Origin: Clostridiales bacterium
GTDB lineage: Bacteria; Bacillota; Clostridia; Caldicoprobacterales; UBA3941
Assembly: GCA_012518535.1 (NCBI GenBank)
Contig: JAAYRX010000220.1
Coordinates: 23,510-87,509 of the forward strand
Direction of reading: 5' to 3'
DNA length: 64,000 bases
In this document: positions 29,996 through 42,184 of the stretch, one piece after another
Layout: every line of letters begins with the position of its first letter
Numbering within the stretch: position 1 is the stretch's first letter
Notes under the pieces: generated by a model
Told to the model about the DNA's origin: nothing
The model's input: the letters and a program-made list of their open reading frames with translations, nothing else
Databases searched by the model: none
Made by a program: the position numbers and the translations under genes

Positions 29996-30445
29996 TTGGA
30001 TAAGTGGGACAAAAGGTTTATGGAAATGGTAAAGGTCATAGCTGGATGGTCCAGTTGTTATCAGCATAATAGAAAGATTGGCGCCATCATAGTAAAAAAC
30101 AAAAGGATATTAACGACGGGATACAATGGAGCACCTTCAGGTTATCCCAGTTGTGTAGAGCGGCAGGAATGCATAAGAAGGATAAGAAATATCCCATCAG
30201 GAACTAAACATGAATACTGTTACGCCATCCATGCTGAACAGAATGCTATCGTCCAGGCCGCGAAATTGGGGGTATCTATAGATGGAGCTACCCTGTACTG
30301 CACTCATCAACCTTGTGTAATCTGTGCAAAATTAATAGTAAACAGTGGTATTATTCGAGTGGTATACGAAGAACCATACCCCGATAGCCTGGCTACAGAA
30401 ATATTGGAGGCTGTCGGGGTTAGTCTTGAAAGGTATATTGAATAA
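29996..30445 (+). CDS. comEB: dCMP deaminase (ComEB-type)
   Basis: Zinc motifs HAEQNAI and PCVICAKLI. TTG start with GGGGGA upstream. Confidence 0.85.
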   Translation: MDKWDKRFMEMVKVIAGWSSCYQHNRKIGAIIVKNKRILTTGYNGAPSGYPSCVERQECIRRIRNIPSGTKHEYCYAIHAEQNAIVQAAKLGVSIDGATLYCTHQPCVICAKLIVNSGIIRVVYEEPYPDSLATEILEAVGVSLERYIE

Positions 30446-30463
30446 GCAGGACAGGTTATGATC

Positions 30464-31246
30464 CTATACATCATCTTTGGAAGGATCAGGCGGTTCCATA
30501 TATTGACCTGATAATGTTTGAAGAGTTCTAGGCAGCGCATCTCTGGAATTACCCCATGGCTTGTCCTGGTTTCGATAATCGAATTTTTGTGTATACCATA
30601 ATAGATCGGCTTCTAATTGATCCAAGGTCTTTGTTTGGATGGGCAGAATAGAATCGATCCATCTATCAAACAGTTTAGCGGAAAGGGTTTCGTTTGCTAT
30701 TTTCATAATCAATGCAAAATGATGAAGGCAGAATCCTTTTGATTTTTTCAAGGTCTCGCTGAATTTGTTGTCCTTTTGCCAAAGATAAAGAATTGTATAC
30801 GCATATCTGTTTAATAGGTTTTCCAACCTATCGCATATCATACAGCTATGATGATGGTCGTTTAGCCATTCCAGCAGGGTACTTAGAGGGCTGCCCGATC
30901 CACCACCTTTTCCTGTCAGTTTAGACTTTAAACTAGAAAGAAGCCCTTTTTTTTCTCTCTTTAAGTCTTGGGTAAGCCTTTGAAATTCACCGATTGTTTC
31001 TTTTAGATGTGTGTGAGTGATTAAGGCAAGACCCAGGCGATTTTTTTCGCCATAGAGCTGCATAAAGTGATTACCGCAAAAGCCTATTCTATTCACATCA
31101 ATTCTGGTGCTAGGCTCCATAACTGATCCGCCAAGGAAAAAATCCACATATTTCTTTTCGGAATTATACTCTAATACGCATAAGGGGCATTGATCTTGTT
31201 GGCTATAGGCATCCCATACAGGAATGGTATCTATATGATACTTCAT
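30464..31246 (-). CDS. hypothetical Cys/His-rich protein with an internal duplication (possibly DUF6062-like)
   Basis: Two units, CPLC..FCGNHF and CMICD..FCLHHF. AGGGAGG lies 6 nt upstream of the second ATG (MKYHIDTIP). Confidence 0.55.
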   Translation of the reverse strand: MKYHIDTIPVWDAYSQQDQCPLCVLEYNSEKKYVDFFLGGSVMEPSTRIDVNRIGFCGNHFMQLYGEKNRLGLALITHTHLKETIGEFQRLTQDLKREKKGLLSSLKSKLTGKGGGSGSPLSTLLEWLNDHHHSCMICDRLENLLNRYAYTILYLWQKDNKFSETLKKSKGFCLHHFALIMKIANETLSAKLFDRWIDSILPIQTKTLDQLEADLLWYTQKFDYRNQDKPWGNSRDALPRTLQTLSGQYMEPPDPSKDDV

Positions 31247-31366
31247 TGTCATCCTCCCTGATTTTATACTAAACGCATTGTATCATAAATCAAAAGATAC
31301 CGCCATAAATATAAAACAACGAGCAAGATATAAACAAAGATATTTGTGGGAGGGGAGGATTTGGAC

Positions 31367-32284
31367 ATGCGATATTCGCGGATAAGAAGGGCGAGAAATC
31401 AAAAGCGTTATGCTATTGTTCTCTTGATTGCATTTTTACTTCTGGGAGGAATCTATTTTCTTATGGCTGGTACCATAGGAAAGGCTATCAGCAATATAAT
31501 AACTCCTATTTTAAAACCCAAAGTGGGTTCGCAACAGGATGAGCAAGGCGGGGACACTGCAAATGAGATTGGTTTGGAGGGAGAGGGCACAGAGCTTAGC
31601 CTTCCTCAGGAAGAAAAGCAGGGTAGCCAAGGTCCTCGCATAACTGAAACAATAAAGATAGAAGCAAAGAGTTTTTTTGGAATACAGTTGGGTGCCTTCA
31701 ATAATAGGGAAAATGCCCTGTCCATTGCCAATGAGCTCAAGAAGAAGGGTGCAGCGGGGTATGTACTGGAAGATCAGTTTTCCAGGGTTTTGGCTATTAT
31801 ATTCCAGTCACAAGAAGATACCAGGGCGGTCATGGAACAGCTTAAGGCACAAGCAGTTGAATCTCAAGTGTATGAACTCAAATGCCCCGGAGTAGATATG
31901 GAGATAACTGCTTCAAGTGAAAAAGTGAAGGGCATTGAATCTTCATACCAAATGGTAATGGAGAATTTCGGATTAATAGAATCTATTATAAAGGACCTGG
32001 ATAGGGATAAGATCACTTTGGAGATAGCAATAGAAAATTTAAAGGATATGAGGGATGAGATAAGGATAAAAACAGATCAACTGCAAGCGTATTCGACAGA
32101 TGAAGAGGGGAGTCCGGTTTTATCAGGTTTGAGGAATTTCCTTTCTACACAGGTTGAAAATTTAGATGATATACTACTGGGAAACATATCGGATAGAGTA
32201 GAAATTTCCTCCAAGATAAAGTATACTTATATAGACATGGCAGTTAAGTACAAAAAGTATATGGAAGAAATTGCTAATGGATAG
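31367..32284 (+). CDS. SPOR-domain membrane protein
   Basis: N-terminal TM helix. SPOR-like FFGIQLGAFNNRENALSIANELKKKGAAGYV. GGAGGGGAGGA lies upstream of ATG 31367. Confidence 0.65.
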   Translation: MRYSRIRRARNQKRYAIVLLIAFLLLGGIYFLMAGTIGKAISNIITPILKPKVGSQQDEQGGDTANEIGLEGEGTELSLPQEEKQGSQGPRITETIKIEAKSFFGIQLGAFNNRENALSIANELKKKGAAGYVLEDQFSRVLAIIFQSQEDTRAVMEQLKAQAVESQVYELKCPGVDMEITASSEKVKGIESSYQMVMENFGLIESIIKDLDRDKITLEIAIENLKDMRDEIRIKTDQLQAYSTDEEGSPVLSGLRNFLSTQVENLDDILLGNISDRVEISSKIKYTYIDMAVKYKKYMEEIANG

Positions 32285-32297
32285 GGAGAGATAGTAT

Positions 32298-32645
32298 TTG
32301 AAGATATCAACTATAAAGGACCTGCTTGAGGCAGAGTTAATTGTAGGGGAAGAATTTCTGGACCACGAAGTAGTATCTGCATGCGGGTCTGATTTGATGA
32401 GCGATGTATTGACTTTTGTGAAAGAGCAAACAGTCTTATTAACCGGACTCAATAATCCCCAAGTGATACGCACTGCTGAGATGCTGGATGTTTCTTGCAT
32501 CGTATTTGTAAGGGGGAAAAAACCTGCTCAGGATATTATAAAGATGGCACTGGAGCGTGATATAGTGTTATTGTCCACCGATAACACTTTGTTTGAGGCG
32601 TGCGGTAAACTCTATGAAGGCGGACTCAGAGGAGACATGAGATGA
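32298..32645 (+). CDS. DRTGG-domain protein (115 aa)
   Basis: Small protein with the ..DLMSDVL..LLTGL..PQVIRTAE.. pattern. Paralogous to 34554-34898. TTG start with GGGAGAG upstream. Confidence 0.6.
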   Translation: MKISTIKDLLEAELIVGEEFLDHEVVSACGSDLMSDVLTFVKEQTVLLTGLNNPQVIRTAEMLDVSCIVFVRGKKPAQDIIKMALERDIVLLSTDNTLFEACGKLYEGGLRGDMR

Positions 32646-33082
32646 CTGTGGAATCAAATGCAGGTGTCGGCATGGTCCACAGCTATCAAATCGAGGCAGG
32701 TAATTTTACCAAGGCCGGTGAAGCGGCCAGCAGTATCAAGAGGATTTTAAGGCAATTAGGTGTTGATGCCAATGTAATTAGACGGGTGTCCATTGCCGCA
32801 TATGAAGCAGAAATGAATATGGTTATTCACTCAATCGGTGGGACAATTCAAGTGGCAATAAGCCCGCAAGTCATTGTGTTCAAGGCCATAGACGAGGGAC
32901 CGGGTATAGAGGATGTAAACTTAGCTATGGAAGAAGGATTTTCGACAGCCAAAGATTGGGCTAGAGAATTAGGGTTTGGGGCCGGAATGGGGTTACCTAA
33001 CATAAAAAGATGTTCCGATGATTTTCGCATCCAATCTGAGGTGGGGCAAGGCACCTATTTAGAAGCTAGATTTTTATTATAG
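32642..33082 (+). CDS. GHKL ATPase of the anti-sigma-factor Ser/Thr-kinase type (RsbW/SpoIIAB-like)
   Basis: N-box AAYEAEMNMVIHS, G1 DEGPGIED and G2 GFGAGMGLPN. 146 aa. ATGA-type overlap with the upstream gene. Confidence 0.7.
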   Translation: MTVESNAGVGMVHSYQIEAGNFTKAGEAASSIKRILRQLGVDANVIRRVSIAAYEAEMNMVIHSIGGTIQVAISPQVIVFKAIDEGPGIEDVNLAMEEGFSTAKDWARELGFGAGMGLPNIKRCSDDFRIQSEVGQGTYLEARFLL

Positions 33083-33211
33083 GCATCCCGATCCAGTCAT
33101 TGGCTTGGAGTGCCATAGCAATATACTTAACCTATTTCCAAAAAAATTGGGACAACAAGCAGCCAATTATACATAAAAAGACCTATCTATGTAAAGAGGA
33201 AGGTGATCTAT

Positions 33212-34564
33212 ATGCAGGGGTACTACCATTCCGTAACCTTGGATGAAGACAAGTGCATGGGATGTACCAATTGCATTAAGAGATGCCCCACAGAGGCCAT
33301 TCGGGTAAGGGATGGCAAGGCATATATAATTGCAGAACGCTGTATAGATTGCGGCGAATGTATTAGGATATGCCCATATCATGCAAAAATCGCAGTTACC
33401 GATCCCTTAGATGCGATAGATGATTATAGGTATAAGATAGCTCTACCGGCACCAACTTTATATGGTCAGTTTGAAAACCTAACCAGTATAGACAGTGTTT
33501 TAAATGGACTCAGACTATTAGGATTCGATGATGTTTTTGAAGTCGCCAGGGGAGCTGATTTCGCTACTGAATATACAAAGTACCAGATTAAGCATACTAA
33601 TCCCAAGCGACCTATTATTTCCTCATCCTGCCCAGCCGTAGTGAGATTGATACAAGTCAGGTTTCCTGAACTGATATCAAATCTCGCCGATGTTCAATCA
33701 CCCATGGAGATTGCTGCTCAAATCGCTAAGGATGAATTTAGTAGGAAACATGGAGTGGATATAGAAGAGATAGGTGCTTTTTTTATAACGCCCTGTGCGG
33801 CGAAAGCTACCAGCATTAGGAACCCGTTGGGCACTGAGGAGTCCAGCGTCGACGGAGCTATATCCATCTTGGATATATTTGGTCCTCTGTCATTGGTAAT
33901 GAACAAGGATGATAATCCATGTACGACTATCGGCCTCCGAAAGTCCACCCTTAAGGGTGTGGGATGGGCAAATTCAGGTGGTGAAGGAACTTCACTGGAC
34001 ATAGCCAGCTATTTGGCTGTGGACGGTATTCCCAACGTAATAAAGGTTTTGGAAGAGATTGAAAATGGCAAGCTATCGGATTTGGACTTTTTCGAAGGTC
34101 TGGCCTGTGTAGGTGGATGCGTTGGTGGGCCACTGGTTTTTGAAAATAATTATGTTGCACAGAATAGGTTGAGGAAGCTTATTAGTAAGATTGAAGACTC
34201 TGAACCTATTGATCGCAAAGAATTTAATATGGCTTTGGAGAAGTACGACTGGAAGTTTAATAAGGAGATATTGCCAAAGCCTATCATGAGATTAGATGAT
34301 GATATTTCATCTGCCATAAAGAAGATGGAGGAATTGGAAAGGATATATGCCGATCTTCCCGGGTTGGATTGCGGCTCTTGCGGCTCACCCAGCTGCAGGG
34401 CTTTGGCGGAGGATATAGTAAGGGGATATACTACCGAATTTGATTGTATAATTAAGCTTAGGGAGAAGATAAGAAACCTGGCACGAGAATTCGGCGAGTT
34501 ATCAGACAATCTACCTACAGGAATGGATAGAAGTGACACAGGAGGATTAAAGCATGAGGATTAG
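33212..34564 (+). CDS. [FeFe]-hydrogenase-like sensory protein (HydS-like, no PAS domain)
   Basis: Two ferredoxin motifs (CMGCTNCIKRCP, CIDCGECIRICP). Degenerate H-cluster motifs SSSCPAV, TPCAAKAT and ACVGGCVGGP. C-terminal CGSCGSPSC motif. Confidence 0.75.
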   Translation: MQGYYHSVTLDEDKCMGCTNCIKRCPTEAIRVRDGKAYIIAERCIDCGECIRICPYHAKIAVTDPLDAIDDYRYKIALPAPTLYGQFENLTSIDSVLNGLRLLGFDDVFEVARGADFATEYTKYQIKHTNPKRPIISSSCPAVVRLIQVRFPELISNLADVQSPMEIAAQIAKDEFSRKHGVDIEEIGAFFITPCAAKATSIRNPLGTEESSVDGAISILDIFGPLSLVMNKDDNPCTTIGLRKSTLKGVGWANSGGEGTSLDIASYLAVDGIPNVIKVLEEIENGKLSDLDFFEGLACVGGCVGGPLVFENNYVAQNRLRKLISKIEDSEPIDRKEFNMALEKYDWKFNKEILPKPIMRLDDDISSAIKKMEELERIYADLPGLDCGSCGSPSCRALAEDIVRGYTTEFDCIIKLREKIRNLAREFGELSDNLPTGMDRSDTGGLKHED

Positions 34565-34898
34565 TGATATAATTAGTAAGATACCGCACACCATTTTAGC
34601 AGGAGAAGAATTCTTAAATAGGGAGATCAAATCCGGATATTGCTGTGACCTACTGAGCCGGGTAATGGCCCATGGTCCAAGGAATGGGATATGGATAACC
34701 GTCCAAACCCATGTTAATATTATCGCAATTGCTACCTTACTTGAAATTTCTTGTATTATAATTCCCGAGGATATCAAGGTAGATCCCAATACCATAGAAA
34801 AAGCCAACGAAGAGGAGGTCGTAGTCATCTCTTCACCTTTGACGGCTTTTGAATTGGCAGGATTGCTATATGAAATGGGAGTGGGCTATCAGCAATGA
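34554..34898 (+). CDS. DRTGG-domain protein (114 aa)
   Basis: Paralog of 32298-32645 (..CCDLLSRVM.., ..IIAIATLLE..). Overlaps the sensor gene by 11 nt. Confidence 0.6.
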   Translation: MRISDIISKIPHTILAGEEFLNREIKSGYCCDLLSRVMAHGPRNGIWITVQTHVNIIAIATLLEISCIIIPEDIKVDPNTIEKANEEEVVVISSPLTAFELAGLLYEMGVGYQQ

Positions 34899-35596
34899 GG
34901 ATAGCAGTCGACCTACACATACATTCGGCTCTTTCGCCCTGTGCTGATGATGATATGACCCCTAACAATATAGTAAATATGGCAATACTAAAGAAACTGG
35001 ATGTCATATCCATTACTGACCATAACAGCTGTGACAATGTGGAGGCAGTAATAAAGGCAGCGGACTCCAGATTGATTGTTGTGCCGGGCATGGAAGTACA
35101 GACCAGGGAGGAAGTTCATCTTTTATGCTATTTCAGCTGGCTGGACAAGCTTATGGACTTTGAGGAGGTAATCAATAATAAATTGCCAAATATATCAAAC
35201 GTCCCCAAGATATTTGGCAACCAATTAATAATTGATGATGAGGATAAGGTTGTTGGTGTAAGGGATGAAATGTTGATATCATCAACGGACTTATCAATAG
35301 ATCAAATAATAGAGGAAGTTTGGAGCAGGAATGGTGTGGTAATTCCTGCCCATGTTGATAGACCATCTTACAGTGTCATCTCCCAGTTAGGTTTTATACC
35401 CCATACTCTGGAGGATGGAATGGTGGAAATAAGCGATTATAAGAATGAGCTACTCCGCCAGTACCCTTCCCATAAACTTTTATATTCATCAGATGCCCAT
35501 GAACTAGGGCAGATACTGGAACGAGTTAGTTTTCTAACTGTATGGGATTTATCTGTTTCAGGCATTCTCAAAGCCTTAAGAAACCCCTCAAAATAA
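34895..35596 (+). CDS. PHP-domain phosphoesterase
   Basis: Metal-binding motifs DLHIHS, ITDHNS, PAHVDRP and SSDAH. ATGA overlap with the upstream gene. Confidence 0.75.
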   Translation: MRIAVDLHIHSALSPCADDDMTPNNIVNMAILKKLDVISITDHNSCDNVEAVIKAADSRLIVVPGMEVQTREEVHLLCYFSWLDKLMDFEEVINNKLPNISNVPKIFGNQLIIDDEDKVVGVRDEMLISSTDLSIDQIIEEVWSRNGVVIPAHVDRPSYSVISQLGFIPHTLEDGMVEISDYKNELLRQYPSHKLLYSSDAHELGQILERVSFLTVWDLSVSGILKALRNPSK

Positions 35597-35806
35597 AGCA
35601 TTTATGGATCATTTTTAAATACCATTCTCATATTAGAAATAAAAAAATTGATAATTAAATAACAAAAAGATTCTGAATATTTTATCATTTAATTGTGTTA
35701 GCGGGCACTTCACTGGAATTATAAAGGCATAAAATGCAGATATAAAGCTGAATTTGCCGAAATATGCATGTCAATAAAAATATCTTAAAAATATTTCGTT
35801 AAATAT

Positions 35807-35834
35807 ATGACAAATATAAAAAATGTGTTAGAAT
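35807..35834 (+). promoter_or_regulatory. candidate promoter of the hydrogenase structural operon
   Basis: ATGACA, 16-nt spacer, TG-n-TAGAAT (extended -10). About 130 nt upstream of ATG 35962. The AT-rich context makes this tentative. Confidence 0.35.
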
Positions 35835-35961
35835 GTCCTTGTATTTTTATTTGAATAGAAAAATACGGCATGTCGTAAAAAGCTAACTCTTATTAGGGAT
35901 AGTTTTTAAGGCTTGTCGACAGTAACGATTTTATAGCTATTATATTGGAGGAGGGGACAAA

Positions 35962-36447
35962 ATGTCAGCCATAGATTTAGAGAATCAGGAGAAATTTCAA
36001 CAGCTTCAAAAGGTCATTGACGAATGGAAGGATAAGGAAGGTCCACTTATGCCAGTGCTTCATAGCGCACAGGAGATTTTCGGATGCCTATCCCTGGATG
36101 TACAGAAGTATATATCCAAAGAAATGGATATACCCGTTAGTGATATATATGGGGTTGCGACTTTTTACTCCCAGTTTACATTAAAGCCTAAGGGCAAGTA
36201 TAGAGTTGGAGTATGTATGGGTACAGCATGCTATGTAAAAGGGTCCCAGGCTATATTGGATGAACTTAAAAAGGTATTGGACTTAAAAGAGGGAGAAACC
36301 TCCGAGGATGGACTATTCACCCTGGATGCTACCAGGTGTTTGGGAGCATGTGGTCTGGCCCCCATAATGATGATTAACGATGATGTTTATGGTAGGCTAA
36401 AACCTGAAGATATAAAAGGTATAATAGACAAATACAGGGATAAATAG
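35962..36447 (+). CDS. hydC: NuoE-like [2Fe-2S] subunit of NAD(P)-linked [FeFe]-hydrogenase
   Basis: Thioredoxin-like 2Fe-2S Cys pattern (VCMGTACYVKG .. CLGACGLAP). GGAGGAGGGG RBS. Confidence 0.85.
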   Translation: MSAIDLENQEKFQQLQKVIDEWKDKEGPLMPVLHSAQEIFGCLSLDVQKYISKEMDIPVSDIYGVATFYSQFTLKPKGKYRVGVCMGTACYVKGSQAILDELKKVLDLKEGETSEDGLFTLDATRCLGACGLAPIMMINDDVYGRLKPEDIKGIIDKYRDK

Positions 36448-36449
36448 TT

Positions 36450-37001
36450 ATGCAGGATTTATCGCTGCACATTTTGGATCTTATACAAAATTCTATAGCG
36501 GCGGATGCGAGCCATATTGAACTGACAATATACGAGGATAAGGATAAGAATTGGCTTATCGTCGACATAGAGGACAATGGAAAAGGAATGGATGAAACAG
36601 CTATGAGAAGAGCAACCGATCCATTCTACACTACCCGCTCTACCCGTAAAGTAGGGCTGGGACTGCCACTGTTTACAGCAATGGCACAAAGGTGTGGAGG
36701 TGATGTAGTCCTCGAATCGATTAAGGGAAAAGGAACCAGGATAAAATCCGGATTCCAGCTAAACCACATAGACCGACCGCCTTTTGGGAATCTGGAGGAT
36801 ACCATTACAACCTTGATTCTGTGCAATCCAAAAATAGAGTTCGTATATATCCATAAAGTCAATAACGATGAATTCAAGCTAGACACTAGGGATATCCGGC
36901 AAGTTATAGGGGATATTCCCATCGAACATCCCGAAATAATTAATTGGATTAAATCTTATATAAAGGATGGGCTCAAAGAAATAAATGGAGGTGTCCAATA
37001 G
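36450..37001 (+). CDS. GHKL (histidine-kinase-like) ATPase domain protein embedded in the hydrogenase operon
   Basis: N-box ILDLIQNSIAADA, G1 IEDNGKGMDE and G2 KVGLGLPL. No sensor, DHp or TM region. Confidence 0.7.
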   Translation: MQDLSLHILDLIQNSIAADASHIELTIYEDKDKNWLIVDIEDNGKGMDETAMRRATDPFYTTRSTRKVGLGLPLFTAMAQRCGGDVVLESIKGKGTRIKSGFQLNHIDRPPFGNLEDTITTLILCNPKIEFVYIHKVNNDEFKLDTRDIRQVIGDIPIEHPEIINWIKSYIKDGLKEINGGVQ

Positions 37002-37375
37002 TGAAGACCTTAAAAGAATTGGAAGAGATAAGACAAAGAACGCTGGAATCTGTAAATCTAAGAAAGGACAGAACAGGTGCCAGAGTGGTTGTTGGTATGG
37101 CTACCTGCGGTATAGCTGCTGGTGCGAGACCTATACTCATGACTTTTCTTGAAGAGATTAAAAATAGAAGCCTCAATGATGTAACAGTTACTCAGACCGG
37201 ATGCATTGGTGTTTGCCGTTTAGAGCCAATGGTAGAAGTCTATTTACCCGGTAAGGATAAGGTAACATATGTCAAGATGACACCTGAAAAGGTTAAGAGG
37301 ATAGTAGCTGAACATTTAGTGAATAACCAGGTAGTTCAAGAATTTACAATAGGGGCAACAGAAAAGAATGATTAA
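37001..37375 (+). CDS. thioredoxin-like [2Fe-2S] ferredoxin subunit
   Basis: MATCGIAAGA .. QTGCIGVCRLEP pattern. GTG start overlaps the preceding stop, with GGAGGTG upstream. Confidence 0.75.
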   Translation: MKTLKELEEIRQRTLESVNLRKDRTGARVVVGMATCGIAAGARPILMTFLEEIKNRSLNDVTVTQTGCIGVCRLEPMVEVYLPGKDKVTYVKMTPEKVKRIVAEHLVNNQVVQEFTIGATEKND

Positions 37376-37396: not shown

Positions 37397-39193
37397 ATGG
37401 AACTTTATCGTTCTCATGTTTTGGTCTGTGGGGGAACAGGATGCCATTCATCGGGATCAGGAGACCTGATAGATCATTTTAACAGGGATTTAAAGAAGTA
37501 TGGAATAGAGAAAGAAGTAAAGGTGGTTCAGACCGGTTGTTTTGGGTTGTGTGAGGTTGGACCGATTGTCATAGTCTACCCTGAAGGCGCATTCTATAGC
37601 AGGGTCAAGGACGAAGATGTAACCGAGATTGTTTCGGAACACCTTGTTAAAGGGCGTATAGTTAAGCATCTGCTATATCACGACAGTGTAGACGTGGATC
37701 ACGAAATCAGATCTCTGGACGAAGTACCCTTCTATCAAAAACAGATGAGGGTAGCCCTGCGAAATTGCGGTGTTATAAACCCAGAGAATATCGATGAATA
37801 TATTGCCTTTGATGGATATATGGCTTTGGGAAAGGTCTTAACGGAAATGACTCCGGAAGACGTTATAGCCCTCTTAAAAGAATCTGGACTTAGGGGTCGG
37901 GGTGGAGCAGGCTTCCCCGCTGGGTTGAAGTGGGAATTTACCTACAAAGCTAAAGGAGATAAAAAGTTTGTAGCCTGTAATGCTGACGAGGGTGATCCTG
38001 GAGCATTTATGGATCGCAGCATCTTAGAGGGTGATCCCCATTCGGTTATAGAAGCTATGACCATTGCAGGATACACCGTAGGTGCCGATCAAGGATACAT
38101 CTACGTCAGAGCTGAGTATCCCATTGCCGTGGAGAGACTTACCAAAGCTATAGCACAAGCTCGAGAATACGGTCTCTTAGGTAAAAATATACTGGGCACG
38201 GATTTTAGCTTTGATCTGGAACTAAGACTTGGTGCGGGGGCCTTCGTTTGTGGAGAAGAGACTGCACTTCTGGCTTCAATTGAAGGAGACCGTGGAGAAC
38301 CCAGACCAAGACCGCCTTTCCCAGCGGTAAAGGGTCTGTTTGGTAAGCCAACCCTGCTAAACAATGTTGAGACTTACGCAAATATACCTCAAATTATTTT
38401 AAAGGGTTCCGACTGGTTCCAAGGCATTGGTACCGAAAGGAGTAAAGGTACCAAGGTATTTGCATTGGGTGGAAAGATTAATAACACGGGATTAGTTGAG
38501 GTCCCCATGGGGACGACACTTAGGGAGATCATATATGAGATCGGTGGAGGAATCCCCGAAGGAAGGACATTTAAAGCTGCGCAAACCGGCGGCCCCTCAG
38601 GTGGATGTATCCCTGCGGAGCATCTCGACACACCTATCGATTATGATTCCCTTAGTTCAATAGGCTCTATGATGGGCTCGGGCGGTTTGATTGTTATGGA
38701 TGAAGACAATTGTATGGTAGATATCGCTCGCTTTTTCCTGGAGTTTACCGTTGAGGAATCCTGTGGAAAATGTCCTCCATGTCGTATAGGGACGAAGAGG
38801 ATGCTGGACCTCTTAAATAAAATTGCCGAAGGTAAAGGTGAAGAAGGGGATCTGGAGAAGCTGGAGGAATTAGGCGAAGGTATAAAAATAGCTTCCCTGT
38901 GCGGTCTTGGACAATCCGCACCCAATCCCGTGCTGAGCACAATTAAGTACTTCAGGGATGAATACGAGGAACATATAAGGGATAAGAAATGCAGGGCAGG
39001 AGTATGTCAGGCACTGCTTCAATATATCATTATCGAGGACAAATGCAGAAGCTGTGGTCTTTGCGCAAGGGTCTGTCCCGTCAACGCTATTTCCGGCCAG
39101 AAGAAGCAGCCCTATGTTATAGACCAGGATCCCTGCATTAAATGTGGGGCTTGCATGGAGAAATGTCCTTTTGATGCCATTGTTAAAAGATAA
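37397..39193 (+). CDS. hydB: NuoF-like flavoprotein subunit of [FeFe]-hydrogenase
   Basis: N-terminal 2Fe-2S (VCGGTGCHSSG). FMN/NADH site GRGGAGFPAGLKW. ESCGKCPPCR cluster. Two C-terminal ferredoxin motifs. Confidence 0.9.
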   Translation: MELYRSHVLVCGGTGCHSSGSGDLIDHFNRDLKKYGIEKEVKVVQTGCFGLCEVGPIVIVYPEGAFYSRVKDEDVTEIVSEHLVKGRIVKHLLYHDSVDVDHEIRSLDEVPFYQKQMRVALRNCGVINPENIDEYIAFDGYMALGKVLTEMTPEDVIALLKESGLRGRGGAGFPAGLKWEFTYKAKGDKKFVACNADEGDPGAFMDRSILEGDPHSVIEAMTIAGYTVGADQGYIYVRAEYPIAVERLTKAIAQAREYGLLGKNILGTDFSFDLELRLGAGAFVCGEETALLASIEGDRGEPRPRPPFPAVKGLFGKPTLLNNVETYANIPQIILKGSDWFQGIGTERSKGTKVFALGGKINNTGLVEVPMGTTLREIIYEIGGGIPEGRTFKAAQTGGPSGGCIPAEHLDTPIDYDSLSSIGSMMGSGGLIVMDEDNCMVDIARFFLEFTVEESCGKCPPCRIGTKRMLDLLNKIAEGKGEEGDLEKLEELGEGIKIASLCGLGQSAPNPVLSTIKYFRDEYEEHIRDKKCRAGVCQALLQYIIIEDKCRSCGLCARVCPVNAISGQKKQPYVIDQDPCIKCGACMEKCPFDAIVKR

Positions 39194-39219: not shown

Positions 39220-40959
39220 ATGGATATGATTAAGGTAAAAATAGATGGCATAGAAGTGGAAGTACCTGCCGGGACTACAGCCTTGGAAGCCGCCAGGAAA
39301 GCAGATATTGATATACCCACTTTATGTTATCTTAAGGATATAAATGAAATCGGTGCGTGTCGTATGTGTTTGGTAGAGGTAGAAGGTGCTAGAAGCCTTC
39401 AGGCGTCTTGTGTTTTCCCGGTCACAGACGGAATGAACATCAAGACAAATACTCCCAAGGTCAGGGCTGCCAGGAAACTCAGTCTTGAGCTTATACTATC
39501 AAATCACGACAGGAAATGCCTGACCTGTGTAAGAAGCCAGGATTGTGAATTGCAGGATTTGTCGAAAAGACTAGGAGTTGATGATATCCGCTTCGATGGA
39601 GAAAGGCATGACAAGCCGGTGGATTCTTTCTCACCCTCCATCGTCAGAGACCCAAACAAATGCATTTTATGTAGGCGTTGTGTGTCCGTATGTAGAAATG
39701 TACAGGGAATTGGCGTGATTGGTGCAACTGAGAGAGGTTTTGACACCATGGTTGAACCGGTTTTCAACATGAGTATAAATGATGTCCCCTGTATAAACTG
39801 TGGACAGTGTATCATAGCCTGTCCGGTAGGTGCCCTAAGGGAAAAAGATGAGATTGAAAAGGTATGGGATGCTCTGAATAATCCCAATCTCCATGTAGTT
39901 GTACAAACTGCACCTGCTGTCCGTGTTGCTCTGGGAGAAGAGTTTGGCATGGAAATGGGTACCAGGGTAACTGGTAAGATGGTTGCAGCCCTTAGACGTC
40001 TGGGATTTGATCGAGTATTTGATACGGATTTTGCCGCGGATCTTACCATAATGGAAGAGGGTCACGAGCTGTTGGATAGGCTCCAGGGAGGAGGCAAACT
40101 ACCCATGATCACCTCCTGTAGCCCCGGTTGGATAAAGTACTGCGAGCACTATTATCCTGAATTCCTGGACAATTTGTCCACATGCAAATCTCCTCATGAG
40201 ATGATGGGAGCTGTTATTAAGTCCTATTATGCAGAGAAGAATGGTTGGGATCCGGCTGATGTTTTTGTGGTATCCATAATGCCTTGTACCGCAAAGAAAT
40301 TTGAGGCACAACGTCCAGAACTAAGCGCTGTAGGCCATCCCGATGTTGATGTGGTGCTTACCACCAGAGAACTTGCAAGGATGATCAAGGAAGCGGGTAT
40401 GGATCTAACGAAGCTACCGGATGAAGGGTTTGATCCCGCCCTAGGAGATTCTACAGGAGCAGGCGTCATTTTCGGTGCAACCGGTGGTGTTATGGAGGCT
40501 GCCCTTCGTACCGTACATGAGGTTGTTACTGGTGAACCCATAGATAACGTAGAAGTTCACGCAGTCCGTGGAATTGAAGGAGTAAAGGAAGCTGAAGTTC
40601 AGCTGGGTGACCTAACCATAAGAGCAGCTATAGCACACGGAACTGCTAATGCCAAAGCCTTATTGGAGCAGATAAAATCAGGTGAAAAGGAATACCATTT
40701 CATTGAAATAATGGGTTGTCCGGGTGGATGTGTAACAGGTGGGGGTCAGCCCATAGTGAAGGCAAAGACCTATATGGAATTGGACCCCAGGGTAGTGAGG
40801 GCTAAAGCGATTTATGAAGAGGACAGGGATCTGCCTATTAGAAAATCCCATGAGAACCCATCGGTTAAAAAATTGTACGATGAGTATTTGGGCGAACCCA
40901 ACAGTAAGAAGGCACACGATCTACTTCATACTCATTATACCAAGAGAAGTGTATACTAA
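39220..40959 (+). CDS. hydA: [FeFe]-hydrogenase catalytic subunit (multimeric, bifurcating-type architecture)
   Basis: N-terminal 2Fe-2S, a His-ligated cluster region and two ferredoxin motifs. H-cluster motifs TSCSPGW, MPCTAKKFE and EIMGCPGGCVTGGGQP. Confidence 0.9.
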   Translation: MDMIKVKIDGIEVEVPAGTTALEAARKADIDIPTLCYLKDINEIGACRMCLVEVEGARSLQASCVFPVTDGMNIKTNTPKVRAARKLSLELILSNHDRKCLTCVRSQDCELQDLSKRLGVDDIRFDGERHDKPVDSFSPSIVRDPNKCILCRRCVSVCRNVQGIGVIGATERGFDTMVEPVFNMSINDVPCINCGQCIIACPVGALREKDEIEKVWDALNNPNLHVVVQTAPAVRVALGEEFGMEMGTRVTGKMVAALRRLGFDRVFDTDFAADLTIMEEGHELLDRLQGGGKLPMITSCSPGWIKYCEHYYPEFLDNLSTCKSPHEMMGAVIKSYYAEKNGWDPADVFVVSIMPCTAKKFEAQRPELSAVGHPDVDVVLTTRELARMIKEAGMDLTKLPDEGFDPALGDSTGAGVIFGATGGVMEAALRTVHEVVTGEPIDNVEVHAVRGIEGVKEAEVQLGDLTIRAAIAHGTANAKALLEQIKSGEKEYHFIEIMGCPGGCVTGGGQPIVKAKTYMELDPRVVRAKAIYEEDRDLPIRKSHENPSVKKLYDEYLGEPNSKKAHDLLHTHYTKRSVY

Positions 40960-40983: not shown

Positions 40984-41019
40984 CGGCATAGTCGTGAATA
41001 GCGGCTATGCCGTTTTTTC
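40984..41019 (+). terminator. rho-independent terminator of the hydrogenase operon
   Basis: CGGCATAG / CTATGCCG stem followed by TTTTTT. Confidence 0.8.
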
Positions 41020-41299: not shown

Positions 41300-42184
41300 G
41301 TGGGTTCGTTTCTGGCTGGAGGCTGCGTAGCAGCCTGGGCATTTTATTTGAAAAGCGACACGCCGAAAAACGAGCGGATCAAAACGGTCGCGGATATGCT
41401 GATCTTATCCAATATCCTCATGATACTCTGCAATATGGCGGCCATTCATTTATCACCACAAGCAGTACTGGCATTGGCCATGCTTATGCTGCTGGGTGCT
41501 TTCGTGTTAGCCCTGAAGCTTCCGGAAGAGGATAACACTGTTTCCTCAACCCCCTCCGAAAAGAGTGAGAATACCGTAGGCATTGCGAGACTTCTGGTTT
41601 TTTTGTGCCTATTTATTGTCATTATCACCATTAACTCCGGACTCATGTATCAGGTGGTGAATCCCGCATTTATGCATCTTGAAGGATTAGCAGGCTGGTA
41701 TTGGGCTGTTCCTTATATCGTCGCGCTTTTTGTTATGAGAAACCTGCCCCGTCGAATAAACCACGCTTATATTCTCTATGTCGCCACCGCACTGCTGCTT
41801 TTCACCTGGCTCTTTATTATAACGGTCTATCGTGGAAAATATGACGCCGAGTTTGTACTGGACGGTAAAGGTGTCGTCTGCCGGACGCAGGCAAAACAGG
41901 CGAAAAAGAACAAGGTTATCAACGCCCTGACGGTAGTGCTGGGTGGGTTATCCGGCAATCAGGCTGCTGCCGGCGCTGGGATGCTGGCGCAGTCGCGGCA
42001 GGAAGTTACTCTCCGATGGAACCGTGTTGAAAGGGTTAAGTATAGACCTAAAAGCCGCACCATCCTTTTGCGGGGCGGCTGGACGGAGCAGATTGCGCTG
42101 TTCTGCACTGAAAATAATTATGAACAGGTCGAAGCTTTTGTGGGCCGGAATATACCGTTCCCTGAGAATGGAAGAGACAGATGA
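41300..42184 (+). CDS. hypothetical multi-pass membrane protein, probably 5-prime truncated or chimeric
   Basis: Frame is open from 41156 with no ATG; GTG 41300 is the first candidate start. The N-terminal two-thirds has hydrophobic helices and the C-terminal third is soluble-looking. GC-rich codons. Confidence 0.35.
   Translation: MGSFLAGGCVAAWAFYLKSDTPKNERIKTVADMLILSNILMILCNMAAIHLSPQAVLALAMLMLLGAFVLALKLPEEDNTVSSTPSEKSENTVGIARLLVFLCLFIVIITINSGLMYQVVNPAFMHLEGLAGWYWAVPYIVALFVMRNLPRRINHAYILYVATALLLFTWLFIITVYRGKYDAEFVLDGKGVVCRTQAKQAKKNKVINALTVVLGGLSGNQAAAGAGMLAQSRQEVTLRWNRVERVKYRPKSRTILLRGGWTEQIALFCTENNYEQVEAFVGRNIPFPENGRDR

What the first reader, a model, noticed from the sequence alone, without database searches (positions are those of the whole stretch)
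32298..35596. Five-gene putative H2/redox-sensing phospho-switch directly upstream of the hydrogenase operon
Seen in sequence:
- Five tightly packed, partly overlapping genes (overlaps at 32642, 34554 and 34895).
- They encode a DRTGG protein, an RsbW/SpoIIAB-type GHKL kinase, a hydrogenase-like protein, a second DRTGG protein and a PHP phosphoesterase.
- The hydrogenase-like protein has degenerate H-cluster motifs.
- The locus has no STAS protein, sigma factor, response regulator or DNA-binding domain.

Established: sensory [FeFe] hydrogenases (HydS, hfs-type loci) are described. To my knowledge the signalling route through these small accessory proteins is not biochemically defined.

Inference: a partner-switching-like circuit. 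The DRTGG proteins would replace STAS as kinase substrates, and the PHP enzyme would act as the eraser. The circuit would tune hydrogenase expression or activity to H2 or redox state.
Basis: partly seen in the sequence, partly recalled or inferred. Interest (0 to 1): 0.62.

Follow-up and report, generated by a model that had tools for sequence, protein, structure and literature searches.

The report
Hydrogen-sensor hydrogenase signalling gene cassette
This is a widely conserved five-gene cassette built around a sensor-type (group D) [FeFe] hydrogenase, with a SpoIIAB-like protein kinase, a PHP phosphoesterase and two small DRTGG proteins, sitting in front of an NADH/ferredoxin hydrogenase operon; the sensor is already described, but how it signals is an open question, and these neighbours are the obvious testable candidates.

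Summary
Five same-strand genes at 32298-35596, with three start/stop overlaps, encode DRTGG, a SpoIIAB/RsbW-like GHKL kinase, a hydrogenase-like protein, a second DRTGG paralog and a PHP phosphoesterase. An electron-bifurcating HydABC-type operon follows after a 366-bp gap.

The hydrogenase-like protein is a group D (M2e) putative sensor like TamHydS, not hfs/group C: it has no PAS domain and carries the C-terminal Cx2Cx4Cx16C motif. All four H-cluster cysteines are kept; only second-sphere residues are changed.

The cassette is complete in 55 of 66 species with enough flank. 27 of 41 complete cassettes directly precede a hyd operon.

The partner-switch reading is only partly supported:
- **For:** the kinase ATP boxes and PHP metal ligands are invariant, and both DRTGG paralogs share an invariant Asp32-x-x-Ser35.
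- **Against:**
  - DRTGG is not STAS-like.
  - It occurs naturally fused to the kinase (common), to the HydS C-terminus (where group C has PAS) and to PHP, which suggests a docking or transmitter domain.
  - Ser35 persists where no kinase is adjacent.
  - PHP's nearest structural relatives are nucleic-acid or nucleotide phosphoesterases.
  - No output domain is linked. The hyd promoter often carries a Rex operator instead.

Verdict: an ordinary member of a known but mechanistically unsolved locus type.

The parts
32298..32645 (+). DRTGG1, 115 aa (TTG start, RBS GGGAGAG). Small DRTGG-domain protein, the partner of the kinase.
   Evidence: PF07085 29.7 bits. Best PDB relative is AF_1212 2IOJ. 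Invariant D32, S35, D36, T49, G50, T59, R72, K74 across 73 homologs. Fused to the kinase in L052, L057 and at least 120 protein clusters.
32642..33082 (+). SpoIIAB/RsbW-type GHKL Ser/Thr kinase-like protein, 146 aa.
   Evidence: PF13581 and PF02518. SpoIIAB 1TIL E 3e-4. N-box E55/N59/H63, G1 D84xGPG88, lid G99xSTA103 and G2 G111FGAGMGL are all 96-100% conserved in 76 homologs. The homologous domain in the fusion model matches SpoIIAB with TM 0.81-0.84 and RsbW with TM 0.85.
33212..34564 (+). Group D (M2e) putative sensory [FeFe] hydrogenase, 'HydS'. 450 aa from ATG 33212; the ORF opens at GTG 33203.
   Evidence: Fe_hyd_lg_C, 2x[4Fe-4S] and PF04060 FeS. No PAS. C390x2C393x4C398x16C415 is invariant. 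Below the NCBIfam group A and B cut-offs. S142 aligns to the relay Cys and C143 to the ligand Cys. Matches the TamHydS description in PMC8163306.
34554..34898 (+). DRTGG2, 114 aa. Paralog of DRTGG1, the partner of HydS and PHP.
   Evidence: 33% identical to DRTGG1, E 1e-18. Invariant D32, L34, S35, W47, T49, N55 in 68 homologs. Co-occurs with PHP: 63 both, 9 neither. Fused to the HydS C-terminus in P0384, P0430 and P0502, and to PHP in P0417.
34895..35596 (+). PHP-domain metal-dependent phosphoesterase, 233 aa.
   Evidence: PF02811. H8, H10, D42, H43, E67, E72, H75, H153, D200, H202 and the S14-P15-C16 motif are invariant in 66 homologs. AF2 pLDDT 95. Nearest folds are EndoQ 5ZB8 (TMq 0.72), RNase AM and pAp phosphatase 2YB1.
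35597..35961 (.). AT-rich intergenic region with the hyd operon promoter. Contains a Rex-like site at 35648-35665 (TTGATAATTAAATAACAA, 2 mismatches) and the best + strand promoter-like site at 35807-35834 (ATGACA-16-TAGAAT with TG).
   Evidence: The equivalent gaps of 16 of 42 related loci hold a Rex-type operator, against 0.73 expected.
35962..36447 (+). NuoE/HydC-like [2Fe-2S] subunit of the bifurcating hydrogenase.
   Evidence: PF01257 179 bits.
36450..37001 (+). GHKL2: an orphan histidine-kinase-type ATP-binding (CA) domain with an ~80-aa C-terminal extension and no DHp/HisKA. A possible further component of the same system.
   Evidence: PF02518 58.8 bits. WalK CA domain 3SL2 E 1e-8. Present in all 27 hyd operons that directly follow a cassette, and absent from the other hyd operons in L010, L028 and L030.
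37001..37375 (+). Small thioredoxin-like [2Fe-2S] ferredoxin (HydD-like).
   Evidence: PF01257 27 bits; NF041612.
37397..39193 (+). NuoF/HydB-like FMN/NADH subunit.
   Evidence: PF01512, PF10589; TIGR01959 503 bits.
39220..40959 (+). Catalytic group A [FeFe] hydrogenase HydA of an electron-bifurcating HydABC-type enzyme.
   Evidence: NF040763 947 bits, above the 765 cut-off. Best PDB hit is HydA1 7Q4V, 832 bits.
40984..41012 (+). Intrinsic terminator-like hairpin ending the hyd operon.
   Evidence: 12-bp stem, 7 GC pairs, T-run.

Best explanation
The five genes are the standard accessory cassette of a group D (M2e) 'HydS' putative H2-sensing [FeFe] hydrogenase. Here it sits in front of an electron-bifurcating HydABC operon that has its own promoter, probably Rex-controlled.

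**Shown.**
- The sensor keeps an H-cluster site but lacks the proton-relay Cys and the two framing Met residues. It has the C-terminal [4Fe-4S] motif and no PAS domain.
- Gene 2 is a SpoIIAB/RsbW-class Ser/Thr kinase with an intact ATP site.
- Gene 5 is a PHP phosphoesterase with an intact metal site.
- Genes 1 and 4 are paralogous DRTGG proteins.
- The order is conserved across Clostridia and beyond.
- Natural fusions join DRTGG1 to the kinase, DRTGG2 to the HydS C-terminus, and DRTGG2 to PHP.

**Inferred.**
- The DRTGG domains are docking or transmitter modules. DRTGG2 takes the place that PAS holds in group C sensors and brings in the PHP enzyme. DRTGG1 brings in the kinase.
- An H2-dependent conformational change in HydS shifts the balance between kinase and phosphoesterase on a shared phospho-site.
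- The best candidate site is the invariant Ser35 at a helix N-terminus of the DRTGG paralogs.
- No DNA-binding protein is linked. The output is therefore probably post-translational (on HydABC, or on the orphan kinase-type ATP-binding protein inside the hyd operon), or it runs through an unlinked regulator.
For: - **Sensor class:** domain and motif data match the published TamHydS description (PMC8163306). That enzyme is slow, CO-tolerant and encoded upstream of a bifurcating hydrogenase.
- **Conservation:** the cassette is complete in 55 of 66 species. 27 of 41 complete cassettes are followed by NuoE-GHKL2-Fd-NuoF-HydA. 0 of 9 reduced cassettes are (Fisher p about 3e-4).
- **Kinase:** the N, G1, lid and G2 boxes and the N-box Glu are invariant. 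The fold is closest to SpoIIAB and RsbW.
- **PHP:** all metal ligands are invariant, and the model is confident.
- **DRTGG paralogs:** they share an invariant D32xxS35 and T49. Ser35 lies at the start of helix 34-39, after strand 27-30, in the least confident stretch of the DRTGG domain model.
- **Fusions:** DRTGG1-kinase in at least 120 clusters of two clades. HydS-DRTGG2 in three 50%-identity representatives. DRTGG2-PHP in P0417 and three small clusters.
- **Co-occurrence:** DRTGG2 and PHP are present or absent together (63 both, 9 neither).
- **Adaptor slot:** in L055 a CheW adaptor occupies the DRTGG1 position.
- **Group C parallel:** those sensors pair with Ser/Thr kinases and phosphatases (PMC5707799, PMC5037454).
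Against: - No biochemical evidence exists for any interaction or phosphorylation.
- The model tool gave no coordinates. The position of Ser35 relative to the kinase ATP site could not be examined.
- PHP's nearest structural relatives act on nucleic acids or nucleotides. No CpsB/YwqE-type protein phosphatase appears in the top 50.
- Ser35 and the other motif residues are kept in the Anaerosolibacter loci, which have DRTGG1-HydS but no adjacent kinase or PHP.
- KIN-HydS pairs exist without any DRTGG gene nearby (L070, L078).
- The HydS-DRTGG2 and DRTGG2-PHP fusions are few. Because the genes overlap, some could be frameshift artefacts.
- No output is identified.
- 14 of 41 complete cassettes are not followed by a complete hyd operon.
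Confidence: 0.45

Rival explanations
1. Strict partner-switch. The two DRTGG proteins are free STAS-like antagonists. The kinase phosphorylates them and PHP dephosphorylates them. Their phosphorylation state decides which partner the kinase sequesters, and that sets hydrogenase expression or activity.
For: - The kinase is of SpoIIAB/RsbW class with an intact catalytic apparatus.
- Both DRTGG paralogs have an invariant Ser35 at a helix N-terminus, the same local setting that I recall for the phospho-Ser of SpoIIAA (the SpoIIAA comparison is from memory).
- A kinase and a phosphoesterase share one tightly coupled operon.
Against: - The DRTGG fold matches AF1212, the CBS-PPase DRTGG domain and the HPrK N-terminal domain. 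It does not match STAS.
- DRTGG1 is very often covalently fused to the kinase, and DRTGG2 to HydS or PHP. That is unexpected for freely exchanging antagonists.
- No sequestered output such as a sigma factor is encoded nearby in 80 loci.
- Ser35 is kept where no kinase is adjacent.
- PHP is not close to known protein phosphatases.
Confidence: 0.2
2. Small-molecule route. The DRTGG domains bind a phosphorylated or nucleotide ligand at the conserved pocket formed by the loops after three consecutive strands (D32/S35, T49/G50, R72/K74). PHP hydrolyses that ligand. The GHKL protein is an ATP-dependent binding switch rather than a protein kinase.
For: - The conserved residues cluster just after strands 27-30, 45-49 and 67-70. 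From general knowledge, that is typical of ligand sites in Rossmann-like domains.
- DRTGG occurs in the nucleotide-regulated CBS-PPase (3L31 and 3L2B hits).
- PHP's nearest relatives are nucleotide or nucleic-acid phosphoesterases: EndoQ, RNase AM and the AMP-bound 2YB1.
- The motif is kept in kinase-less loci.
Against: - No enzyme that would make such a ligand is in the cassette.
- DRTGG2 lacks the basic R72/K74 pair.
- The kinase keeps the N-box Glu expected of an active Ser kinase.
- As I recall, nucleotides in CBS-PPase bind the CBS domains, not the DRTGG domain.
Confidence: 0.13
3. Not a signalling device. HydS is a low-activity hydrogenase or electron-transfer module, and the four small proteins are assembly, protection or accessory subunits of the neighbouring HydABC enzyme.
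For: - Close physical linkage to hyd operons in two thirds of complete cassettes.
- HydS keeps a complete H-cluster site and the N-terminal electron-transfer clusters.
- The five genes carry no output domain.
Against: - A third of complete cassettes, and all reduced ones, are far from any hyd operon.
- Solved HydABC complexes that match this HydA (7Q4V and 8A6T) are described as HydA, HydB and HydC. As far as I know they contain no such subunits.
- Kinase and phosphoesterase active sites are under strict conservation.
- TamHydS has sensor-like kinetics (PMC8163306).
Confidence: 0.08
4. The PHP gene is an EndoQ-like DNA-repair nuclease that merely sits beside the sensor genes.
For: The best structural match is Endonuclease Q (5ZB8 and 7K30, TMq 0.72, 20-22% identity). 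Some sources name its homologs 'PHP family Zn ribbon phosphoesterase'.
Against: - It is 233 aa against about 400 aa for EndoQ and covers only the PHP core.
- It scores 15 bits against TIGR00375, whose cut-off is 326.
- It is translationally coupled to DRTGG2.
- It is present or absent together with DRTGG2.
- It is occasionally fused to DRTGG2.
Confidence: 0.03

Closest known systems
Group D (M2e) putative sensory [FeFe] hydrogenase, TamHydS of Thermoanaerobacter mathranii (PMC8163306, PMC13104023); loci Cthe_0335, Cphy_3798, TTE0887, Athe_1292, Csac_1857 and Teth39_1463 (PMC3561251)
   Same: - Same domain plan: 2x[4Fe-4S], H-domain and C-terminal Cx2Cx4Cx16C, with no PAS.
- Same active-site substitutions: the relay Cys is lost, M353 is replaced by a hydroxyl residue, and M497 by Leu.
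- Same position upstream of a trimeric bifurcating group A hydrogenase and next to a kinase-like ATPase.
   Different: - A different organism: an uncultured Clostridia bacterium from anaerobic digesters, with 50-67% identity to the relatives fetched from genome assemblies (L001-L080).
- Thr rather than Ser at the M353 position.
- The papers I could search do not discuss the two DRTGG genes or the PHP gene.
- The TamHydS paper mentions an AraC regulator next to its gene. None is present here, and none recurs in the 80 loci.
Group C (M2f) sensory [FeFe] hydrogenases: TmHydS, Ruminococcus albus HydS, HfsB of the hfs operon (PMC5707799, PMC11837493, PMC5037454)
   Same: - A sensor-type H-domain with N-terminal clusters and the same C-terminal four-Cys cluster.
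- Encoded near catalytic hydrogenases and near Ser/Thr kinase or phosphatase genes.
- Genetic evidence for a regulatory role exists for hfsB.
   Different: - Group C carries a fused PAS domain and is linked to PP2C-type Ser phosphatases, histidine kinases or MCPs.
- Here PAS is absent. A DRTGG protein follows the sensor, and is fused to it in some lineages.
- The phosphoesterase is of the PHP type.
SpoIIAB-SpoIIAA-SpoIIE and RsbW-RsbV-RsbU partner-switching modules
   Same: The kinase has the same fold and catalytic motifs as SpoIIAB and RsbW. An antagonistic kinase and phosphoesterase are encoded together with small alpha/beta proteins that carry an invariant Ser.
   Different: - No STAS protein, no PP2C phosphatase and no sigma factor.
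- The small proteins are DRTGG domains and are often fused to the kinase.
- The NCBIfam SpoIIAB model scores 48 bits against a cut-off of 135.
Regulatory [NiFe] hydrogenase system HoxBC-HoxJ-HoxA of Ralstonia eutropha (as summarised in PMC5707799)
   Same: The logic is the same: a catalytically poor hydrogenase senses H2 and controls a kinase that governs hydrogenase genes.
   Different: - The proteins are unrelated: a [NiFe] sensor, a PAS-histidine kinase and a response regulator with DNA-binding output.
- Here no histidine phosphotransfer domain, receiver or DNA-binding output is present.
HPr kinase/phosphorylase
   Same: Both DRTGG proteins give weak hits to the HPrK N-terminal domain family (PF02603, E about 1e-3), and 1KO7 appears among the fold matches. 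HPrK is a precedent for a DRTGG-like domain fused N-terminally to a Ser kinase.
   Different: The HPrK catalytic domain is a P-loop kinase, not GHKL. As far as I know, the function of its N-terminal domain is itself unknown.
Endonuclease Q / COG1379 PHP phosphoesterases, RNase AM, pAp phosphatase
   Same: The PHP core fold and metal-ligand set are shared, and these are the best structural matches.
   Different: The protein here is much shorter than EndoQ. It fails the TIGR00375 cut-off and is genetically tied to DRTGG2 and HydS.

Membership tests
Group D (M2e) [FeFe] hydrogenase (TamHydS type) | H-domain with the four H-cluster-binding cysteines. | tested here: met
   C143, C198, C302 and C306 are 100% conserved in 81 homologs. 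C143 aligns to the ligand Cys of the TSCCP motif.
Group D (M2e) [FeFe] hydrogenase (TamHydS type) | [quoted passage not shown] | tested here: met
   Fer4 hits at residues 12-61. C390-x2-C393-x4-C398-x16-C415 is invariant. PF04060 43.7 bits.
Group D (M2e) [FeFe] hydrogenase (TamHydS type) | No PAS domain (this distinguishes it from group C/M2f). | tested here: met
   No PAS family among the Pfam hits at E <= 0.01.
Group D (M2e) [FeFe] hydrogenase (TamHydS type) | Proton-relay Cys (C299) absent; M353 replaced by a hydroxyl residue; M497 replaced by Leu. | tested here: met
   SSSCPA / FFITPCAAK / EGLACVGGCVGGP. TamHydS has Ser and Leu at the two Met positions (PMC8163306).
Group D (M2e) [FeFe] hydrogenase (TamHydS type) | Encoded upstream of a trimeric bifurcating group A hydrogenase. 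| tested here: met
   NuoE-GHKL2-Fd-NuoF-HydA starts 366 bp downstream. The same holds in 27 of 41 complete cassettes.
Group D (M2e) [FeFe] hydrogenase (TamHydS type) | Low turnover, CO tolerance and an H2-induced conformational change (sensor behaviour). | not testable with these tools
   Needs the purified, maturated enzyme.
Catalytic group A or group B [FeFe] hydrogenase | Score above the NCBIfam cut-off for group A (TIGR02512, 406) or group B1 (TIGR04105, 450). | tested here: not met
   123 and 157 bits respectively.
Group C / hfs-type sensory hydrogenase locus | A PAS domain fused after the C-terminal cluster, with a PP2C-type Ser phosphatase or histidine kinase neighbour. | tested here: not met
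   No PAS and no PP2C in the locus. hfs composition is taken from PMC11837493.
SpoIIAB/RsbW-type anti-sigma Ser/Thr kinase | GHKL N, G1 and G2 boxes, an ATP lid, and the N-box Glu. | tested here: met
   E55, N59, H63, D84xGPG, G99xSTA and G111FGAGMGL are 96-100% conserved.
SpoIIAB/RsbW-type anti-sigma Ser/Thr kinase | Fold closest to SpoIIAB or RsbW rather than to histidine-kinase CA domains. | tested here: met
   Tested on the homologous kinase domain of fusion P0121. SpoIIAB TM 0.81-0.84; RsbW 0.85. Histidine kinases rank lower.
SpoIIAB/RsbW-type anti-sigma Ser/Thr kinase | Equivalog-level sequence membership (TIGR01925 cut-off 135). | tested here: not met
   48.2 bits. A relative, not an ortholog.
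SpoIIAB/RsbW-type anti-sigma Ser/Thr kinase | Phosphorylates a Ser of a partner protein and binds a sigma factor. | not testable with these tools
   No sigma factor gene lies in the locus. Activity needs biochemistry.
Partner-switching system | STAS-domain antagonist. | tested here: not met
   No STAS hit in any locus gene. The DRTGG fold does not match STAS in the top 50.
Partner-switching system | PP2C (SpoIIE/RsbU-type) phosphatase. | tested here: not met
   The only phosphoesterase is of the PHP type.
DRTGG domain (PF07085) | Score above the Pfam gathering threshold of 25.2. | tested here: met
   DRTGG1 scores 29.7 bits. DRTGG2 scores 23.5 bits, below the cut-off, but is a 33%-identical paralog, and fused homologs reach 29 bits.
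PHP phosphoesterase (PF02811) | Score above the gathering threshold, and a complete His/Asp/Glu metal-ligand set. | tested here: met
   30.1 bits against 26.4. H8, H10, H43, E67, H75, H153, D200 and H202 are invariant.
PHP-fold phosphoprotein phosphatase (CpsB/YwqE type) | Sequence or structural proximity to CpsB/YwqE. | tested here: not met
Endonuclease Q / TIGR00375 | Family cut-off of 326.6 bits and the additional C-terminal domains. | tested here: not met
   15.4 bits. 233 aa against about 400 aa.
Electron-bifurcating HydABC hydrogenase (downstream operon) | A group A HydA above the NF040763 cut-off, together with NuoE- and NuoF-like subunits. | tested here: met
   947 bits against 765. 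NuoE scores 179 bits and NuoF 503 bits. Best PDB hit is 7Q4V HydA1.
Rex regulon member (hyd operon) | A TTGTKAANNNNTTMACAA operator in the promoter region. | tested here: inconclusive
   The window site at 35648-35665 has 2 mismatches and is not significant on its own. However, 16 of 42 orthologous gaps carry a site, against 0.73 expected.

The most novel reading that the evidence does not exclude
DRTGG domains are a so far unrecognised signal-transmission module. In group D H2 sensors they replace PAS. DRTGG2 docks on, or is fused to, the HydS C-terminal cluster domain and carries the PHP enzyme. DRTGG1 carries a SpoIIAB-like kinase. The two paralogs pair, and phosphorylation of their invariant Ser35 forms a new kind of partner switch. 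Its output is post-translational control of the bifurcating hydrogenase, possibly through the orphan kinase-type ATP-binding protein encoded inside the hyd operon, rather than transcription.
Probability: 0.2. Interest if true: 0.75.

Novelty: new member of a known kind. Interest (0 to 1): 0.5.

Why it matters
H2 partial pressure steers the fermentation balance of Clostridia and their syntrophic partners. It matters in digesters, in the gut and rumen, and in biofuel strains.

Group D [FeFe] hydrogenases are thought to be the H2 sensors of many of these organisms. They lack the PAS domain that suggested a signalling route for group C. A 2026 study states that identifying their interaction partners is the critical next step (PMC13104023).

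The comparative data gathered here name those candidate partners concretely: DRTGG2 and PHP on the sensor side, and DRTGG1 and the kinase on the other. They also name a candidate phospho-site (Ser35) and provide natural fusion proteins that could be expressed as ready-made complexes. The question therefore becomes directly testable.

The locus in this window is itself an ordinary member of a very common cassette.

Tried and rejected
- **Rex as the explanation for the window.** The motif count over the whole window is not above chance (21 against 16.4). Only the cross-species test of the PHP-NuoE gaps was significant. Upstream of the cassette itself, sites are rare (4 of 70).
- **A linked output gene.** Clustering all unlabelled ORFs of 80 loci found no recurrent transcription factor. 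It found only antisense shadow ORFs and the ComEB/DUF6062/SPOR context shared by close relatives. The genes that follow cassettes without a hyd operon are unrelated: EF-G, ValRS, amylase, nitrilase and others.
- **Domain geometry from a natural fusion.** I folded a DRTGG1-kinase fusion to see where Ser35 sits relative to the ATP site. The tool returns no coordinates or PAE, so only pLDDT 86.9, pTM 0.72 and secondary structure were usable.
- **DRTGG2-PHP fusions.** They exist but are rare (3 of the 120 clusters listed, each with 1-3 member sequences). I do not lean on them.
- **Literature.**
  - Searches for DRTGG plus hydrogenase, and for locus tags of the accessory genes, found nothing relevant.
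  - Zheng et al. 2014 is not held.
  - My recollection that hfsC/hfsD are a kinase/phosphatase pair was wrong. I corrected it from PMC11837493.
- **HydA motif.** I suspected that TSCSPGW in HydA was an anomaly. It is universal in these operons and is present in the solved HydA1 7Q4V.

Full report
**Observation**

- 32298-32645, 115 aa
- 32642-33082, 146 aa
- 33203-34564, 453 aa
- 34554-34898, 114 aa
- 34895-35596, 233 aa

All three overlaps are visible in the sequence, and each has a Shine-Dalgarno motif upstream:
- ATGA at 32642-32645
- 11 nt at 34554-34564
- ATGA at 34895-34898

The hydrogenase-like gene more probably starts at ATG 33212. That codon lies nine bases after AAGAGGAAGG, and independent public gene calls of the identical locus give 450 aa.

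Profile searches confirm the domain list:
- Gene 1: DRTGG.
- Gene 2: HATPase_c_2, with SpoIIAB as the best NCBIfam hit.
- Gene 3: Fe_hyd_lg_C with two N-terminal 4Fe-4S motifs and a C-terminal PF04060 FeS motif.
- Gene 4: a weaker DRTGG hit.
- Gene 5: PHP.

DRTGG2 falls just below the Pfam cut-off. It is nevertheless a gapless 33%-identical paralog of DRTGG1.

After a 366-bp AT-rich gap comes NuoE, a second GHKL protein, a small 2Fe-2S ferredoxin, NuoF and HydA. HydA scores 947 bits on the NADH-dependent group A model, and its best solved relative is the bifurcating HydA1 7Q4V. A strong terminator follows at 40984-41012.

None of the neighbouring genes tested has a STAS, sigma, receiver or DNA-binding domain. 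These include a dCMP deaminase, a DUF6062 protein, a SPOR protein and a membrane-like ORF.

**What the hydrogenase-like protein is**

It is not 'degenerate' in the sense of having lost the H-cluster. The four cluster-binding cysteines are invariant in 81 homologs. The changes are in the second sphere:
- the proton-relay Cys is Ser142 (aligned);
- M353 is Thr196;
- M497 is Leu300.

The C-terminus carries an invariant Cx2Cx4Cx16C motif, and there is no PAS domain. This is the published definition of the M2e / group D subclass, whose one characterised member is TamHydS. That enzyme is slow, CO-tolerant and encoded upstream of a bifurcating hydrogenase (PMC8163306).

The locus is therefore not hfs-type. 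The hfs operon holds a PAS-bearing group C sensor, a Ser phosphatase homolog and a catalytic hydrogenase (PMC11837493).

Earlier comparative work already listed M2e genes upstream of trimeric hydrogenases and near protein kinases in C. thermocellum, C. phytofermentans, Caldicellulosiruptor and Thermoanaerobacter (PMC3561251). A 2024 survey still calls group D functionally undefined (PMC11216029). A 2026 study concludes that the C-terminal cluster is not reduced by H2 and that finding the interaction partners is critical (PMC13104023).

Searches for papers linking DRTGG to hydrogenases, or naming the accessory genes by locus tag, found nothing relevant.

**Conservation**

The family is very large: 8000 hits at E <= 1e-20, the search's candidate limit, with one architecture among the 120 listed. 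A scan of one genome per species returned 80 loci. They are mostly Clostridia, plus Thermoanaerobacterium, Tepidanaerobacter, Christensenella, Anaerosolibacter and three spirochaetes. I searched their ORFs with the window's ten proteins.

Among the 66 loci with enough flank on both sides:

| Composition | Loci |
|---|---|
| Complete five-gene cassette, same order | 55 |
| DRTGG1-kinase-HydS | 4 |
| Kinase-HydS | 3 |
| DRTGG1-HydS | 2 |
| Lacking only PHP | 2 |

- DRTGG2 and PHP are present or absent together (63 both, 9 neither).
- Of 41 complete cassettes with at least 7.5 kb downstream, 27 are directly followed by NuoE-GHKL2-Fd-NuoF-HydA.
- None of the 9 reduced cassettes is followed by a hyd operon (Fisher p about 3e-4).
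- Where no hyd operon follows, the next genes are unrelated: EF-G, ValRS, amylase and others.
- No transcription factor or other gene family recurs near the cassette.

**State of the catalytic sites**

Across 76 kinase homologs, the following are 96-100% conserved:
- the N-box (E55, N59, H63);
- G1 (D84xGPG);
- the lid (G99xSTA);
- G2 (G111FGAGMGL).

The nearest solved sequences are SpoIIAB. In a confident model of a homologous fusion protein, the kinase domain superposes best on SpoIIAB (TM 0.81-0.84) and RsbW (0.85), ahead of histidine-kinase CA domains.

Across 66 PHP homologs, all expected metal ligands and an S-P-C motif are invariant. Both enzymes therefore look active.

**The DRTGG proteins**

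Both paralogs share an invariant Asp32-x-x-Ser35 and Thr49. DRTGG1 additionally has T59, R72 and K74. In the model, Ser35 opens helix 34-39 after strand 27-30. Thr49 ends strand 45-49, and R72/K74 follow strand 67-70. The conserved residues thus line one edge of the sheet. That could be a phospho-acceptor site or a phosphate or ligand pocket. The motif is not conserved in the archaeal DRTGG protein AF_1212.

By fold, the domain matches AF1212, the DRTGG domain of CBS-pyrophosphatase and the N-terminal domain of HPr kinase. It does not match STAS.

**Natural fusions**

This is the most informative new evidence.
- DRTGG1 and the kinase form one polypeptide in L052 and L057.
- The same fusion is seen in at least 120 protein clusters from two clades.
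- One of those clades is distant. Its locus still reads fusion-HydS-DRTGG2-PHP-GHKL2-NuoE-Fd-NuoF-HydA.
- A search of 1.84 billion representatives with DRTGG2 found 1226 relatives.
  - Three of them are HydS-DRTGG2 fusions. The DRTGG domain follows the C-terminal cluster, exactly where group C sensors carry PAS.
  - One is a DRTGG2-PHP fusion. All keep the D-L-L-S and W-x-T motifs.
- In L055, a CheW adaptor protein sits in the DRTGG1 position of a CheW-kinase-HydS triad.

These data argue that the DRTGG domains are docking or transmitter modules. They tie the kinase on one side, and HydS and PHP on the other, into one assembly.

**Points against the simple writer/substrate/eraser picture**

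- The Anaerosolibacter loci have DRTGG1-HydS with no adjacent kinase or PHP, yet keep D32, S35, T49 and K74.
- Spirochaete loci have kinase-HydS with no DRTGG gene nearby.
- The PHP model (pLDDT 95) is closest to Endonuclease Q, RNase AM, a pAp phosphatase and polymerase PHP domains. No CpsB/YwqE-type protein phosphatase appears in the top 50.
- No output is encoded.
- The hyd operon has its own promoter region, and a Rex-type operator recurs there.
  - It is found in 16 of 42 orthologous gaps, against 0.73 expected. Three of those sites are perfect palindromes.
  - The window's own candidate site, at 35648-35665, has two mismatches.
  - Such sites are rare upstream of the cassette itself (4 of 70).

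Transcriptional control of hyd is thus at least partly explained by a different, known regulator. The cassette's output may be post-translational.

**Most likely mechanism**

I consider it most likely (0.45) that this is an H2/redox-responsive phospho-signalling assembly. HydS is the input. DRTGG2 is the PAS-equivalent transmitter that also recruits PHP. DRTGG1 recruits the kinase. The shared phospho-site is still to be identified, and Ser35 of the DRTGG paralogs is the best candidate.

| Alternative | Confidence |
|---|---|
| Ligand- or nucleotide-based route | 0.13 |
| Non-signalling accessory role | 0.08 |
| Unrelated EndoQ-like nuclease | 0.03 |

None of the interactions or activities has been shown. 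The structure tool gave no coordinates, so the geometry could not be examined.

**Novelty and verdict**

The locus is a typical member of a very common and already catalogued locus type: group D HydS upstream of a bifurcating hydrogenase, next to a kinase. I therefore class it as a new member of a known kind.

Its value is that the signalling route of group D sensors is an explicitly open question. The conserved partners, the candidate phospho-site and the natural fusions make that question directly testable. Interest 0.5.

Noticed in passing
window 36450-37001: A second stand-alone GHKL protein sits inside the hyd operon. It is a histidine-kinase-type CA domain (WalK CA 3SL2, E 1e-8) with an ~80-aa conserved C-terminal extension (D108, P111, G113, T146, W166) and no DHp/HisKA domain. 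It is present in all 27 hyd operons that directly follow a cassette. It is absent from the other NuoE-NuoF-HydA operons seen in L010, L028 and L030. Its function is unknown, and it may belong to the same signalling system.
   Followed up: partly
window 35648-35665 and 35796-35813; L010, L028, L032 and other PHP-NuoE gaps: Rex-type operators (TTGTKAANNNNTTMACAA) occur in the promoter gap of the hyd operon in 16 of 42 related loci, against 0.73 expected. Three are perfect palindromes. The window's own sites have 2-3 mismatches, and one overlaps the -35 of the best promoter-like site at 35807-35834.
   Followed up: yes
window 39220-40959 (HydA residues ~301-307): The catalytic HydA reads TSCSPGW where the textbook L1 motif is TSCCPxW. 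The same is true in 35 of 36 HydA genes of these operons and in the solved bifurcating HydA1 7Q4V. It is a clade trait, not a defect. The sensor keeps the other Cys of the pair (SSSCPA).
   Followed up: partly
L055 8062-10311: A variant triad, CheW-kinase-HydS, has no DRTGG or PHP genes and is not part of a chemotaxis operon. The upstream genes are an unrelated two-component pair and a Sir2 gene.
   Followed up: partly
L019 11659-14799 and L025 7951-11034: In two Bacillota MAGs the complete cassette is followed, after 11-54 nt, by a ~1040-aa 7TM-GAF-GGDEF-EAL protein instead of a hyd operon. Only the L019 copy was scanned against Pfam; the L025 assignment rests on matching size and position. 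This hints at a cyclic-di-GMP output in some lineages.
   Followed up: no
L081 4685-7004: In the distant clade with the fused DRTGG-kinase, HdrC/HdrB/HdrA-like genes (Fer4_8, CCG, Pyr_redox) lie immediately upstream and overlap the fusion gene. GHKL2 precedes NuoE there.
   Followed up: no
window 29996-32284: The upstream context is a dCMP deaminase (+), a DUF6062 protein (-) and a SPOR-domain protein (+) whose stop is 13 bp before DRTGG1. The same context is shared by 8-9 related loci. No promoter is evident between the SPOR gene and DRTGG1, so the cassette may be read through from it or from a promoter inside it (promoter-like sites at 32146-32175 and 32199-32227).
   Followed up: partly
window 33203 vs 33212: The mechanical ORF for the sensor opens at GTG 33203. 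The RBS spacing and public gene calls (450 aa) favour ATG 33212.
   Followed up: yes
window 32564-32588: A terminator-like hairpin (10-bp stem, only 3 GC pairs, weak T tail) lies inside the DRTGG1 coding sequence. It is probably a chance match.
   Followed up: no
window 41300-42184: A 294-aa ORF after the hyd terminator has only sub-threshold membrane-protein hits (MFS, 7tm_3). It overlaps several alternative-frame ORFs in a region of higher GC. It remains unannotated.
   Followed up: no
L053 3370-5088 (- strand): A second, divergent hydrogenase-like gene (123 bits to the sensor) with a NuoE-like neighbour lies upstream of the cassette on the opposite strand. Its class was not determined.
   Followed up: no
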